Origin: a virus
Taxonomy: Duplodnaviria; Caudoviricetes
Strand: one strand, 5' to 3'
Virus record (IMG/VR): IMGVR_UViG_3300037721_000031
Span: 192,001 to 256,000 of that record
DNA length: 64,000 nt
Shown piece by piece: positions 2,367 through 6,476 of this stretch (positions within the stretch are counted from its first letter, which is position 1; each line of letters opens with the position of its first letter). The notes below the pieces were generated by a model. That model made no database searches. It was not told the origin of the DNA and worked only from the letters and a program-made list of their open reading frames with translations. The position numbers and the translations under genes are program-made.

Positions 2367-3122
2367 CTAGCTCTTGGATGACACTAGAGTACGAACTAAT
2401 GACAAACAACTAATTGTAGACAAGATATAACCTAGGTTTACATCATCTATAAAAGGAAGTGTCTTCATTAATACATCTTTAGTCATCATTGCCATTACGC
2501 TACTCAGCTCAGAAGTAGACACTAAGCAAATAACTAAAGCGACATGCTGCCCTGTCATAAGTGAAAAAGTTTCCACCAGCCTATTACTACTCGTTAAGCA
2601 CGAAACAATCAAACTAACTCTGCGAGTTTTATCTTGTAATGCAATATCTGTAGTAGCGGCAGTAACTAACATCCGAACTAACAATACATCATTAGCCTTG
2701 GTTATAATGGATGTTAGTGTCGGCTTATTCAATATACTAAGCATTCGTATAAGTATATTAGCGTTACGATCTCTTAAGATAGTCGGTAACGCCTGATCTA
2801 GTGTCTCTGTATTTTTAAATGATAAGATATTTTCAAAGATTTCGTCATTCATCAAATAAAGTAAATCGACCAATCTTTCCGGGCTTACACATTGGAGTAC
2901 CTTAAAACACACGTTGTCTCTAAGAACGCTAAGAGCTGTAACAATGCCGGCATCACTAGTCTCGTTAACGATCTTAAGAAGACTCTCGTCTGTAGCGCTC
3001 CGTAGTCTATCGACCTCGTTTAAATATCTTAGCTTTGAGATATCGGGCGTAGAAGTTATTGACACAACGTTTCCTTTAGAAGTTAAGTGAATCGCGTTAG
3101 CAAAGATTAGATCGTCCACCAT
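2367..3122 (-). CDS. Helical 12-residue repeat protein resembling MgtE N-terminal domain
   Basis: Strong ~12-aa periodicity (LRSATDESLLKI/VNETSDAGIVTA/LSVLRDNVCFKV/LQCVSPERLVDL/LYLMNDEIFENI); no CBS or transporter domain. Confidence 0.55.
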   Translation of the reverse strand: MVDDLIFANAIHLTSKGNVVSITSTPDISKLRYLNEVDRLRSATDESLLKIVNETSDAGIVTALSVLRDNVCFKVLQCVSPERLVDLLYLMNDEIFENILSFKNTETLDQALPTILRDRNANILIRMLSILNKPTLTSIITKANDVLLVRMLVTAATTDIALQDKTRRVSLIVSCLTSSNRLVETFSLMTGQHVALVICLVSTSELSSVMAMMTKDVLMKTLPFIDDVNLGYILSTISCLSLVRTLVSSKS

Positions 3123-3451
3123 TCAATAATAAATTCATCTGATAGTTCTTTTACACCAGTACGCAGACCTATAAGCGCTACATCCTTTGGTTGTAATTTG
3201 AAATCAGCGCCACCAGTTTGCAGAGGAATGCGAAGAATATCACTGTAAACAGCAGCTACATCAACATCGCTAATAGTGGATACTCTGTTATCGCTATAGC
3301 TAACGAGCTTACGAGCTTGTTCGGAAGTAATAGGAACAGGTACGCGCGTACTGCGCACTATTGTGTCATCCCAATGCCCTGATCTAGGAGCATGCTGAGT
3401 ATCTCTATTAATAGCTGACAGATTAAACTGATCACACACGTAAATCGTCAT
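3107..3451 (-). CDS. DUF1874 / STIV B116 / AcrIII-1-like protein, divergent active site
   Basis: IYVCDQFNLSAI, ITSEQARKLV, VSTISDVDVAAVYSDILRIPL, KLQPKDVALIG, IEWWTI follow the family pattern; GH motif reads SD. Confidence 0.7.
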   Translation of the reverse strand: MTIYVCDQFNLSAINRDTQHAPRSGHWDDTIVRSTRVPVPITSEQARKLVSYSDNRVSTISDVDVAAVYSDILRIPLQTGGADFKLQPKDVALIGLRTGVKELSDEFIIEWWTI

Positions 3452-3488
3452 GACAATTCCTTATTAAAAATAAACTATAGCTAGTTTA

Positions 3489-3715: not shown

Positions 3716-3985
3716 TCAGATAGCTGTTTGAGTGTTAAAATTATGTTCTTTAGCTGTACGCCAAGTCTTGATGTTAGCCATGGCGAAACTACGTACCTTA
3801 CCGCTCTTAAAATCATAAGCACTAAGCAACCATTGTTCTTCTGGGAACTCTTTCGTTTTAGTAAACTGCATAGGAGGGTATGCAGATACTGGTACAACAT
3901 TATGCCAGGTCCGAGTACCATCACCTGATATATAGTCGATCCAAATTGATGTCTTAACAATAGCTTCCAAAGATTCAGTACACAT
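3716..3985 (-). CDS. Stand-alone WYL-domain protein
   Basis: IWIDYISGDG.RT..NVVP ... QWLLSAYD....VRSFAMANI is the WYL signature. Confidence 0.75.
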   Translation of the reverse strand: MCTESLEAIVKTSIWIDYISGDGTRTWHNVVPVSAYPPMQFTKTKEFPEEQWLLSAYDFKSGKVRSFAMANIKTWRTAKEHNFNTQTAI

Positions 3986-4022: not shown

Positions 4023-4060
4023 ATTCAGTAGACTAGCCCTTTTAGGCTAGTCTACTGAAT
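4023..4060. terminator. Hairpin terminator, 16-bp stem
   Basis: attcagtagactagcc-ctttta-ggctagtctactgaat, intergenic. Confidence 0.75.
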
Positions 4061-4736: not shown

Positions 4737-5492
4737 TCACAGGTAGATAAACTGCAATGACTCAGTGTTAATTACCTGCATTACCTTGTCGATATCGAAC
4801 TGATCGTCAGTACGAATACTACTTTCCATGTCAATAACGTAAGGAGACCGTTGATTTGCATCTGTGAACCGCTTGTAAGTATCTGAAATGTTATCTGCAT
4901 TAATGCCTCCAGCGATCCTAATACGATAATCTTTCAGACGCTCAGGAACCTTCCAGTCATTCCTAGTTATACCTTTTCCACGACTCTCGTCCAGGAGAAT
5001 TTGAATTCTATTATGAACATCGCCAGGACCATATTTCTTTTCTGATTTATCAAGATATGAAAATATGTCTTTCTCAGACTTAGAGTGAAGTTGAAGTACT
5101 GTCTTACTTTCATAGCGGTCATAGCACACCCTATCGTAGATGCTATGGACATCATTCGTATCGAATACTCTACTGCGAGCATTGATATTTAATTGAATGC
5201 ATGGGAATGTCTTCAACTCTTCAAGAATTATCGATGTACTATGGTGGTCTGTTTCCAGAATTGAATTGAAGATACTTTTACCACACAAATGCGCTGTACT
5301 GTAAAATTGTCTTACAACTTCTAGGCGTTTGAAATATCCTGGATTACGAGGCATACCTTGTTTCTCAGGGAAGAATAGTACTCCGAAGTCAAGCTCTATA
5401 CAACCGCCACTATTTCGGTATTTAGAGATTTCTCTGATAAGGCGATCTACATCAGTTGAATCATCAATACCTGTGAAACTAAGTATAGTCAT
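4737..5492 (-). CDS. TrpF (PRAI)-like TIM-barrel protein
   Basis: N-terminal FTGIDD; C-terminal ILLDESRGKG, IAGGINADNI, VIDMESSIRTDDQFDIDKV resemble the TrpF phosphate-binding half. Confidence 0.65.
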   Translation of the reverse strand: MTILSFTGIDDSTDVDRLIREISKYRNSGGCIELDFGVLFFPEKQGMPRNPGYFKRLEVVRQFYSTAHLCGKSIFNSILETDHHSTSIILEELKTFPCIQLNINARSRVFDTNDVHSIYDRVCYDRYESKTVLQLHSKSEKDIFSYLDKSEKKYGPGDVHNRIQILLDESRGKGITRNDWKVPERLKDYRIRIAGGINADNISDTYKRFTDANQRSPYVIDMESSIRTDDQFDIDKVMQVINTESLQFIYL

Positions 5493-5620: not shown

Positions 5621-5659
5621 AGTAGATAGATGGGTCTCTGTGAGACCCATCTATCTACT
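5621..5659 (-). terminator. Intrinsic terminator, 18-bp stem plus poly-U
   Basis: agtagatagatgggtctc-tgt-gagacccatctatctact with an A10 tract at 5606-5615. Confidence 0.85.
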
Positions 5660-5708: not shown

Positions 5709-6476
5709 TTATATTTTAGAAAATGCTTTCTCAATAGACCAGTTATACGAATATAATCTAGCATGAAGTTTACTGTACGGGATACCTAAATATTCAGACC
5801 ATTCTTTCAAAGACTTTGTCATTCCATTGAAAGTAATTGATTCACGATTCACCTTTCCTGAGTCATACTCGACAGCTTGTTCTATTGTTAAATTCATTTC
5901 TCTAACACGCTTCTCAAGAGTCCACTTATTAATATCCGTTCTTCTACTAATCTCTGGTATTGTCAATTGTTCACCTTGATATTCATAGCGAACATTGTTT
6001 CTTTTATTATTGGATTGTTCTGTGGGTGTAGCCCACCGACAGTTGTCTTTATTATAATTACCATTGACTTCTCCGCGATCTAGAGAATACCCAGGACCAG
6101 GTTTAGGTCCCATGTCTCTATAAAAAGCTTCGAACGAATTCATCCATTCATCACAGACAGTAATTCCTCTGCCACCGTAGTCAGGGTAGTCTTGATTATT
6201 CTCATTGGTGCATCTGCTTTTCATAGACTGCCAAGAATTATACTCTTGACTACCAAACATACCGTGTGTTTTAGGGCTATTACTAGAAGCTACTTCTTTT
6301 TGTAAACATCCGCAGCTCTTAGTACTACCATTGTTTAAGCTAGCGGTAATTACAACAGTTAGATTACCGCATTCACATCGACAATTCCATCTAGTTTTAC
6401 CAGATAAGCTTTTAACTGGATCCTCAGAAACCACTGCCAGTCTACCAAACACTTTTCCTGTTAAATCTATCTTCAT
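5709..6476 (-). mobile_element. Free-standing HNH homing endonuclease
   Basis: DLTGKVFGRL..CRCECG..TKSCGC; SWQSMKSRC; YGGRGITVCDEW; LDR...GNY...NCRWAT; two C-terminal HTH-like repeats. Confidence 0.9.

What the first reader, a model, noticed from the sequence alone, without database searches (positions are those of the whole stretch)
3107..3451. AcrIII-1 (DUF1874) ring-nuclease homologue with the catalytic GH changed to SD: candidate cyclic-oligonucleotide sponge
Seen: the 38-residue core VSTISDVDVAAVYSDILRIPLQTGGADFKLQPKDVALI aligns without gaps to the DUF1874 pattern (S.[IV]GH.DTA..[LF]S..LG.....NR....L...D...). The N-terminal YVCDQFNLSAI matches Y..NAFS.NM[LI], and the C-terminal IEW is present. 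The GH codons read AGC GAT (3266-3271), each one substitution from GGC CAT; the NR pair reads GG; an inserted loop carries a new SGH (RSGHWDD). Established: DUF1874 is the AcrIII-1 family that degrades cA4 using the GH His, and nucleus-forming jumbo phages remain sensitive to RNA-targeting type III CRISPR. Inference: this copy could bind without cleaving (sponge), use the loop His, or recognise another second messenger.
Basis: partly seen in the sequence, partly recalled or inferred. Interest (0 to 1): 0.82.

Follow-up and report, generated by a model that had tools for sequence, protein, structure and literature searches.

The report
Histidine-less ring-nuclease fold in jumbo phage
A nucleus-forming giant phage from sediment carries a small, well-maintained gene descended from the viral enzymes that destroy the CRISPR alarm molecule cA4, but it has lost both the cutting residue and most of the residues that hold cA4, so it probably now does a different, still unknown job.

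Summary
ORF 3107-3451 (minus strand, 114 aa) is a true but very diverged DUF1874/PF08960 (AcrIII-1/Crn2) homologue. Pfam misses it directly. It is linked by phmmer to Pfam-positive relatives (E 2e-9), by hhalign (99.9%, E 4e-36) and by Foldseek, where all 16 top PDB hits are AcrIII-1, B116, AFV3-109 or Crn2. GH is SD and NR is GG, as reported. The genome encodes chimallin, so the phage is nucleus-forming.

The sponge reading is not supported. Seven of ten mapped SIRV1 gp29 catalytic or cA4-contact positions are changed. These positions differ freely among the six syntenic orthologues, all of which lack His. The lid loop is shortened and variable, and the pocket floor Asn is fixed as Asp. The loop His is Ser in the other five orthologues. 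What stays conserved is the fold core and the predicted homodimer interface (ipSAE 0.65; best control 0.01). pN is below pS in every pair, yet the gene is among the fastest-evolving in its block.

Best reading: an exapted, non-catalytic dimeric pseudo-ring-nuclease, probably a protein-binding host-interaction factor. A remodelled ligand site is not excluded. Earlier AI notes of this scan, which I did not check, report His-less DUF1874 clades on other DNA (Clostridia chromosomes).

The parts
3107..3451 (-). CDS of the 114-aa His-less DUF1874-fold protein (P0001)
   Evidence: ORF list and translation. Homology. Fold.
3457..3462 (-). Shine-Dalgarno-like AAGGAA, 5 nt before the ATG
   Evidence: Read from the sequence. 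The same hexamer precedes the probable GTG start of the next gene at 3065.
3431..3433 (-). Codon of D7. It replaces the family's Asn (98% of the 117 His-containing relatives; SIRV1 N8, a cA4 contact). Asp is fixed in all His-less members.
   Evidence: Contact list from 10.1101/778746.
3347..3388 (-). Residues 22-35: beta1-beta2 loop with the clade-invariant P22, G25, W27, T30 and T35. H26 is not conserved. Part of the loop (28-33, 35) is in the predicted dimer interface.
3266..3271 (-). Codons AGC GAT = S61 D62, at the position of the catalytic Gly-His (SIRV1 G46-H47)
3209..3214 (-). Codons of G80 G81, at the position of the family's Asn-Arg (SIRV1 N65-R66; R66 contacts cA4)
3131..3166 (-). 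Residues 96-107: shortened lid loop, 6 residues shorter than the subfamily consensus. The Q...R...LPEG signature is lost. This is the lowest-confidence part of the model.
3110..3127 (-). Residues 109-114 (I-E-W-W-x-I): the last strand, conserved across the whole family. E110, W112 and I114 are in the predicted dimer interface, and R16 touches E110 of the partner.

Best explanation
The gene encodes a pseudo-ring-nuclease. It descends from a phage AcrIII-1-type (DUF1874) cA4 phosphodiesterase and keeps the alpha/beta fold and the two-fold homodimer. It has lost the catalytic His, most cA4-contact side chains and part of the lid that encloses cA4. It therefore neither cleaves cA4 nor binds it in the canonical way.

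The gene is kept under purifying selection in a small group of related nucleus-forming jumbo phages, while its former pocket and lid surfaces change quickly. I infer that the stable dimer now serves as a scaffold that binds a protein partner, either a host factor or another phage protein. On this view the variable former-pocket face and the clade-specific Trp loop form the contact surface, and the protein acts in host takeover or counter-defence.

Shown: homology, fold, the losses, the clade, and selection. Supported by a model only: the dimer. Inferred: the protein-binding role and its biological direction.
For: Homology and fold:
- phmmer E 2e-9 to a Pfam-positive relative.
- The A1 profile retrieves 2447 proteins; every listed hit outside the clade carries PF08960.
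- hhalign 99.93%, E 4e-36.
- AF2 pLDDT 90; Foldseek top 16 hits are all AcrIII-1, B116, AFV3-109 or Csx1-Crn2 (6scf E 7e-6, TM 0.66).
- The independent ESM Atlas model gives TM 0.72 to a PF08960 cluster.

Losses:
- In the 117 His-containing relatives, G61, H62 and R81 are 99-100% conserved, N80 90%, N7 98%, and the lid Q and R 98-100%.
- In the clade these positions are lost and differ between orthologues.
- The positions map onto SIRV1 contacts N8, H47, T50, R66, Q81 and R85.

Scaffold kept:
- 16 family-conserved positions are retained.
- 12 of 25 clade-invariant residues lie in the 30 predicted interface residues.
- Homodimer ipSAE 0.65 against a best control of 0.01. That mark was reached by 20 of 30 solved homodimers and 1 of 23 monomers. 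Runs agree in at least 91% of contacts and pLDDT is at least 86.

Selection:
- Six intact orthologues at 38-61% identity form one clade (SH-aLRT 99).
- pN 0.26-0.42 is below pS 0.56-0.77 in all ten pairs among five of them.

Fast evolution: the protein is 38-41% identical where flanking orthologues are 52-98% (L004) or mostly 75-92% (L009).

Precedent for a protein-binding role in this family: SIRV2 gp37 binds and inhibits a host lysine methyltransferase (10.1101/2023.01.10.523387).
Against: - No partner has been identified, and I could inspect no coordinates, so I do not know where the Trp loop lies relative to the old pocket.
- Several basic residues survive (R16, R36, K85, K/R23, K/R47), so some nucleotide binding cannot be ruled out.
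- The AF2 model and the dimer prediction lean on an alignment dominated by His-containing relatives. The dimer pass may reflect memory of solved AcrIII-1 dimers.
- dS is saturated, so the dN/dS values are rough.
- Fast evolution is also what relaxed constraint would give.
Confidence: 0.5

Rival explanations
1. Sponge for cA4 or another cyclic oligoadenylate. The dimer still binds the type III CRISPR messenger at the canonical interface site without cutting it, and so titrates the signal.
For: - Family descent and the predicted retained dimer.
- SIRV1 gp29 H47A still binds cA4.
- Nucleus-forming phages are exposed to type III CRISPR signalling.
- S12 and partly S10 are kept, and K85 is kept.
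Against: - Seven of ten mapped catalytic or contact positions are changed. Both Arg (R66 and R85 equivalents) and Q81 are lost.
- These positions are not conserved among orthologues, as a shared ligand would demand.
- The lid that buries cA4 is shortened here and almost absent in P0004.
- The pocket floor Asn is fixed as Asp, and acidic residues occupy positions 61-64. That disfavours a polyanionic ligand.
Confidence: 0.1
2. Binder or enzyme for a different small ligand. A remodelled site built from clade-specific residues (D7, T18, W27, T30, T35, D90), possibly with a metal ion, recognises another immune messenger or metabolite.
For: - A set of polar and aromatic residues is invariant only in the clade, including a Trp in a loop whose neighbouring residues meet at the two-fold axis.
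- Asn to Asp at position 7 accompanies His loss in all seven His-less proteins, including the separately placed P0007.
Against: - Most clade-invariant residues are explained by the dimer interface.
- No known sponge family matches: Pfam gives nothing for the protein, and no Tad2-like or Acb2-like family is found in the genome.
- No structural view of a pocket was available.
Confidence: 0.17
3. Still an active ring nuclease that uses other residues, such as the loop His or Asp-bound metal, in place of the GH histidine.
For: Other ring-nuclease families work without this His, and three Asp (D7, D62, D64) cluster in the old site of this copy.
Against: - H26 is Ser in five of six orthologues.
- D62 and D64 are not conserved.
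- Substrate-contact residues are gone.
- H47A alone costs SIRV1 gp29 more than 2500-fold in rate.
Confidence: 0.03
4. A decaying remnant with no function of its own, carried along in an accessory gene block.
For: It is among the most diverged genes of its syntenic block. All functional signatures of the parent enzyme are lost.
Against: - The frame is intact, at 108-124 aa, in six genomes at 38-61% identity.
- pN is below pS in all pairs.
- There are 25 invariant residues, and the clade-specific loop motif is conserved.
- The predicted fold is confident.
Confidence: 0.07

Closest known systems
AcrIII-1 (SIRV1 gp29; PDB 6SCF, 2X4I), STIV B116 (2J85), AFV3-109 (2J6B)
   Same: Same fold (Foldseek E 7e-6 to 5e-4, TM about 0.66) and the same predicted two-fold dimer. 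The N-terminal x-x-F-S-L-S motif and the buried core are recognisable.
   Different: No catalytic His. The R66, Q81, R85, T50 and N8 equivalents are changed or deleted, and the lid is shorter. There is a 16-residue longer beta1-beta2 loop. Identity in the structural alignments is 8-15%.
Bacterial/phage PF08960 subfamily with NAFSLSML...SAVGHADTA...NR...GQYVGPRLPEG...IEWW (e.g. P0015, P0012, P0021; Thermoanaerobacterium phage THSA-485A DUF1874)
   Same: Nearest sequence relatives: 31-37% identity over the full length, hhalign E 4e-36. They share R16, Q19, R36-x-P-x-P and E-W-W. The two examined here, P0012 and P0021, sit among small ORFs in phage-like contigs.
   Different: Those proteins keep GH, NR and the lid signature at 90-100%. 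This clade has lost them. None of the 18 GenBank phage records that match P0015 is a jumbo phage.
Crn2 domain of Marinitoga Csx1-Crn2 (PDB 8Y7F, 8Y7G)
   Same: Same fold (Foldseek E 4e-4, TM 0.65).
   Different: That domain is a CRISPR-locus-encoded, His-dependent self-limiting ring nuclease fused to an effector. This protein is a stand-alone phage protein without the His.
SIRV2 gp37 as a binder and inhibitor of host lysine methyltransferase SiL_1451 (10.1101/2023.01.10.523387)
   Same: Precedent that a DUF1874 dimer can act through protein-protein contact, apart from cA4 cleavage.
   Different: gp37 keeps its catalytic residues. Its partner is restricted to Crenarchaeota. No partner is known for this protein.
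Phage nucleotide sponges (Tad1, Tad2, Acb2, Acb4)
   Different: Pfam found no family at all for the protein, and no Tad2-like or Acb2-like Pfam family is in the genome. The candidate pocket residues are not conserved among orthologues.
His-less DUF1874-fold clades noted earlier in this scan (Clostridia chromosomes; e1-5245377, e1-5245387)
   Same: According to those AI notes, the same kind of event: the catalytic His and most ligand contacts lost while the fold is kept.
   Different: Different DNA and setting (bacterial chromosomes, not a jumbo phage). The by-sequence look-up found no stretch like P0001 outside this window. I did not check those notes.

Membership tests
DUF1874 / PF08960 (STIV_B116-like) homologous superfamily | Statistically significant sequence relationship to family members | tested here: met
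   phmmer E 2e-9 to P0006, which scores 29.2 bits against a cut-off of 26. hhalign of the clade against a His-containing profile gives 99.93%, E 4e-36.
DUF1874 / PF08960 (STIV_B116-like) homologous superfamily | Direct match to the Pfam HMM above the gathering score | tested here: not met
   No Pfam hit at E <= 10 for P0001, and none in the whole genome. Orthologues P0002, P0003 and P0005 score only 12.8-17.3 bits.
DUF1874 / PF08960 (STIV_B116-like) homologous superfamily | B116/AcrIII-1 alpha-beta fold | tested here: met
   AF2 pLDDT 90, pTM 0.83. The 16 best PDB matches are all family members. The ESM Atlas model gives TM 0.72 to a PF08960 cluster.
DUF1874 / PF08960 (STIV_B116-like) homologous superfamily | Two-fold homodimer | tested here: met
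   Prediction only: ipSAE 0.65 against a best control of 0.01. That mark was reached by 20 of 30 solved homodimers and 1 of 23 monomers. The pass may reflect memory of solved family dimers.
AcrIII-1 / Crn2 ring nuclease (functional class) | Catalytic His of the GH motif (SIRV1 H47) | tested here: not met
   S61-D62 here. Orthologues read TS, ED, SR, EG and EG. GH is present in 117 of 117 His-containing relatives.
AcrIII-1 / Crn2 ring nuclease (functional class) | cA4-contact side chains (SIRV1 N8, S11, N13, S49, T50, R66, Q81, R85) | tested here: not met
   The equivalents are D7, N10, S12, D64, V65, G81, then deleted or L96, then deleted or K101. Only S12 matches the family consensus throughout the clade, and D64 matches it in this copy.
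AcrIII-1 / Crn2 ring nuclease (functional class) | Mobile lid loop that encloses cA4 | tested here: not met
   The lid is 6 residues shorter than the subfamily consensus, the signature is lost, and length varies by up to about 20 residues among orthologues.
AcrIII-1 / Crn2 ring nuclease (functional class) | cA4 cleavage and anti-type-III activity | not testable with these tools
   Needs biochemistry and infection or plasmid-challenge assays.
Cyclic-oligonucleotide sponge (Tad1/Tad2/Acb2/Acb4-like mode of action) | A ligand pocket conserved among orthologues | tested here: not met
   At the canonical site, positions 61, 62, 65, 80, 81 and the lid differ between all six orthologues. A new site elsewhere could not be examined.
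Cyclic-oligonucleotide sponge (Tad1/Tad2/Acb2/Acb4-like mode of action) | Homology to a known sponge family | tested here: not met
   No Pfam family for P0001. PF11195 (Tad2-like) and PF13876 are absent from the genome. Tad1 and Acb4 were not searched by name.

The most novel reading that the evidence does not exclude
A lineage of nucleus-forming jumbo phages converted an anti-CRISPR ring nuclease into a non-catalytic dimer with a new conserved Trp loop and an acidic former pocket. This dimer either inhibits a host immune protein directly, for example a cOA-activated effector or a sensor that recognises ring-nuclease folds, or sequesters a messenger other than cA4. That would be the first AcrIII-1-derived pseudoenzyme counter-defence and the first DUF1874-type factor in Chimalliviridae.
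Probability: 0.15. Interest if true: 0.75.

Novelty: new variant of a known kind. Interest (0 to 1): 0.42.

Why it matters
AcrIII-1/DUF1874 has been described as a family with an 'absolutely conserved' catalytic His (10.1101/778746). In the paper library searched here I found no description of His-less members. This case shows a branch, kept under selection in phages that build a nucleus, in which the enzyme's chemistry and ligand site were discarded but the dimer was kept.

If its partner is a host defence protein, it would point to a counter-defence of a kind not yet described for this fold, in a phage group whose main known vulnerability is RNA-targeting type III CRISPR. It is also a practical warning: a DUF1874-like fold match in a phage genome should not be annotated as an anti-CRISPR ring nuclease or sponge without checking the GH, NR and lid residues.

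Tried and rejected
- Direct Pfam and PHROGs scans of the protein: no hit.
- phmmer against PDB sequences: none.
- megablast of 8 kb and tblastn of the protein against 50,697 GenBank phages: nothing meaningful, only E >= 0.5 hits in mycobacteriophages.
- IMG/VR pattern scan with the clade profile: no confirmed relative.
- Tad2-like (PF11195) and Acb2-like (PF13876) families in the genome: none.
- Sequencing runs: only one DNA run, a sediment metagenome that is probably the source. No RNA run, so there is no expression evidence.
- Overall charge as a sign of DNA mimicry: pI 5.2, within the family range (median 5.5). Rejected.
- Loop-His catalysis: rejected, because H26 is not conserved.
- Translational coupling to the next gene by a 16-nt overlap: doubtful. 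Homologues of that gene align from its residue 20, where a GTG at 3065 is preceded by AAGGAA. The gap is then probably about 41 nt, as in L001.
- A specific functional pairing with the solenoid neighbour: not established. A solenoid-family gene lies within about 3.3 kb downstream in five of the six loci and is directly adjacent in four. It is absent from L004, and all loci are syntenic relatives, so adjacency may only reflect shared ancestry.
- One or two origins of His loss (jumbo-phage clade versus P0007): unresolved. The free tree separates them, but a single clade is not rejected (AU p 0.80).
- I could not obtain model coordinates, so pocket geometry and the position of W27 were not examined.

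Full report
**The object.** The window is bases 192001-256000 of a 266,566-bp viral contig rated 98% complete. The only sequencing run that holds it is a sediment metagenome. The finding is a 114-codon ORF on the minus strand, 3451 down to 3107. AAGGAA lies 5 nt before its ATG. The genome encodes a chimallin at genome 29258-31165 (PF25677, E 3e-41; nearest is Burkholderia phage FLC9 at 39% identity). The 'nucleus-forming jumbo phage' premise therefore holds.

**Is it really a DUF1874 relative?** Direct searches fail:
- Pfam and PHROGs give nothing at E <= 10.
- PDB sequences give nothing.
- GenBank phages give nothing useful.

The link is transitive but strong:
- phmmer over 1.8 billion representatives returns eight small proteins and one weak partial match to a 687-aa protein, which I left out. 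Of the eight, P0006 (E 2e-9), P0009 and P0010 pass the PF08960 gathering score and carry the S-A-V-G-H-x-D-T-A motif.
- A profile of these proteins retrieves 2447 proteins. Every listed hit outside the clade carries PF08960.
- A profile of the His-less clade alone aligns to a profile of 53 His-containing relatives at 99.93% probability, E 4e-36, over 112 of 114 columns.
- The AF2 model (pLDDT 90, pTM 0.83) finds only AcrIII-1 (6SCF, 2X4I), STIV B116, AFV3-109 and Csx1-Crn2 among its 16 best PDB matches (E 7e-6 to 6e-3, TM about 0.65).
- That model used an alignment dominated by His-containing sequences. The ESM Atlas's own single-sequence model independently matches a PF08960 cluster at TM 0.72.

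Homology and fold are settled.

**What has been lost.** The cA4 complex of SIRV1 gp29 defines the following (10.1101/778746):
- a catalytic H47;
- a lid loop (82-94) with R85;
- contact side chains R66, N8, Q81, S11, T50, S49 and N13.

The HMM alignment to 2X4I and the family alignments place these positions as below.

| SIRV1 gp29 residue | Equivalent in this protein |
|---|---|
| N8 | D7 |
| S11 | N10 |
| N13 | S12 |
| H47 | D62 |
| S49 | D64 |
| T50 | V65 |
| R66 | G81 |
| Q81 | deleted, or L96 |
| R85 | deleted, or K101 |
| E88 | deleted, or T98 |

In the 117 His-containing nearest relatives the corresponding residues are 87-100% conserved. The lid is 6 residues shorter than the subfamily consensus, and its Q-Y-x-G-P-R-L-P-E-G signature is gone.

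**The clade.** Five further proteins share these losses: P0002 to P0005 and P0125, at 38-61% identity to P0001. With P0001 they form one clade (SH-aLRT 99). All five lie in metagenomic contigs syntenic with genome 185-204 kb of this phage. They are therefore orthologues in one group of related jumbo phages.

Across the six orthologues:
- the GH position reads SD, TS, ED, SR, EG, EG;
- the NR position reads GG, KS, RR, GD, SS, NK;
- the lid varies by up to about 20 residues and is nearly absent in P0004.

A shared ligand at the canonical site would require these residues to be conserved, and they are not.

The pocket-floor Asn is Asp in all six, and also in P0007. P0007 is a His-less protein from small temperate-like phages that the free tree places elsewhere. 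A single origin with the clade is not rejected (AU p 0.80).

**What has been kept.**
- Sixteen family-conserved positions survive: F9, L11, S12, R16, Q19, R36, P38, P40, S58, A66, L73, L86, I109, E110, W111 and W112.
- A homodimer prediction passes its controls: ipSAE 0.65 against a best control of 0.01. That mark was reached by 20 of 30 solved homodimers and 1 of 23 monomers. Runs agree in at least 91% of contacts and pLDDT is at least 86. Because AcrIII-1 dimers are solved, the pass may partly be memory.
- The 30 interface residues include 12 of the 25 clade-invariant residues. They include the symmetric pairing of strand 36-38 and an R16-E110' contact.
- Sixteen of the 25 invariants lie in the first 41 residues. 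Among them is a clade-specific G25-x-W27-x-x-T30 loop, and residues 28-33 of that loop touch their symmetry mates.

So selection preserves the dimeric scaffold and a new loop, not the old active site.

**Is it functional?**
- All six frames are intact, at 108-124 aa.
- pN (0.26-0.42) is below pS (0.56-0.77) in all ten pairs among five orthologues. Nominal dN/dS is 0.15-0.43 where dS can be computed, although dS is saturated.
- The gene is also one of the fastest-evolving in its block. It is 41% identical in L004, where 19 other best matches are 43-98%. It is 38% identical in L009, where neighbours are mostly 75-92%.
- The downstream alpha-solenoid gene behaves the same way, at 36-37%.

This pattern fits a host-interaction gene in an arms race, though partly relaxed constraint would look similar.

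**Surroundings.**
- The gene lies in a long minus-strand run of small genes of unknown function.
- Upstream lie a 64-aa ORF and an 89-aa ORF with a weak WYL hit (E 0.024).
- Further upstream lie a perfect 16-bp palindrome at 4023-4060 and a PRAI-like protein (PF00697, E 7e-7).
- Downstream lie a 232/251-aa all-helical solenoid and a 169-aa protein of unknown function. The solenoid has 17 helices, pLDDT 86, and only a weak armadillo-repeat resemblance.
- The solenoid probably starts at GTG 3065 rather than ATG 3122, so the reported 16-nt overlap is doubtful.
- A solenoid-family gene lies within about 3.3 kb downstream in five of the six loci, directly adjacent in four.
- The genome has no other PF08960 copy and no Tad2- or Acb2-like family.

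**Where the gene came from.** The nearest His-containing relatives (P0012, P0021) lie among small ORFs in phage-like contigs. This is consistent with the ancestor being an ordinary phage ring nuclease. Among GenBank phages, relatives of P0015 occur only in archaeal viruses, phage THSA-485A and a Hydrogenobaculum phage. None occurs in a jumbo phage.

**Interpretation.**
- An active ring nuclease is very unlikely.
- A canonical cA4 sponge is unlikely, because the contact residues, both arginines and the lid are lost, the positions vary between orthologues, and the floor has become acidic.
- A functionless relic is unlikely given the evidence for selection.
- The best-supported reading is an exapted pseudoenzyme: a stable dimer whose variable former-pocket face and new Trp loop bind something else.
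- I favour a protein partner. The family has a precedent, since SIRV2 gp37 inhibits a host methyltransferase (10.1101/2023.01.10.523387). A small-molecule site would be expected to be conserved.
- A remodelled ligand site built from D7, T18, W27, T30, T35 and D90 is not excluded. I could not inspect coordinates.

**Comparison and novelty.** The protein is a member of the DUF1874 homologous family by sequence profile and fold. It is not a member of the AcrIII-1/Crn2 functional class, because three defining features tested here are not met: the His, the contact residues and the lid. I found no paper describing His-less DUF1874 proteins in the library searched. Earlier AI notes of this scan report His-less clades in Clostridia chromosomes and a Tyr-variant branch on other DNA. 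I did not check those notes. I rate it a new variant of a known kind, of moderate interest.

Noticed in passing
window 2367-3122 (-), probable start GTG at 3065: The gene downstream of the finding encodes an all-alpha solenoid of 17 short helices (AF2 pLDDT 86). It has a weak MgtE_N Pfam hit and weak armadillo-repeat resemblance (Foldseek E about 2e-3, TM about 0.3). It evolves fast: 36-37% identity where neighbours are 75-98%. Related phages carry 2-4 paralogues of it (L002, L003, L009).
   Followed up: partly
window 5709-6476 (-): Free-standing HNH endonuclease (phrog_374, E 6e-77). At least nine paralogues are spread over the genome: genome 165, 9158, 25977, 35019, 64581, 123503, 176758, 197709 and 220151.
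   Followed up: no
window 4737-5492 (-): A 251-aa protein whose C-terminal third matches phosphoribosylanthranilate isomerase (PF00697, E 7e-7, residues 163-242). This is unusual for a phage. It is conserved at 63% identity in the related contig L001.
   Followed up: no
window 3716-3985 (-): An 89-aa protein with only a weak WYL-domain signal (PF13280, E 0.024, below the cut-off) and a phrog_3715 match (E 8e-6).
   Followed up: partly
window 4023-4060 and 5621-5659: Perfect 16- and 18-bp GC-containing palindromes at gene junctions, found by the terminator scan. A weak AT-rich hairpin (3471-3488) followed by a T run sits just upstream of the finding's ribosome-binding site.
   Followed up: no
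genome 185.8-191.7 kb (just before the window); L004 10547-14875; L009 5964-10285: A tandem array of four or five DUF7941 (PF25613) paralogues, 72-98% identical between related phages. This contrasts with the fast-evolving block that holds the finding.
   Followed up: no
genome 29258-31165 (-) (L008): The chimallin gene is only 39% identical to its nearest GenBank relative (Burkholderia phage FLC9) and about 28% to Ralstonia phage shell proteins. This is a deep, uncultured Chimalliviridae lineage from sediment.
   Followed up: partly
L005 1405-1719; L006 5595-5909; L007 5606-5920: P0007 is a second His-less DUF1874-fold protein: DD at the GH site, DG at the NR site, lid deleted, and Asp at the pocket-floor Asn. 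It lies in small temperate-like phage contigs next to DUF3799 and HTH_3 repressor genes. Whether its loss is independent of the jumbo-phage clade is unresolved.
   Followed up: partly
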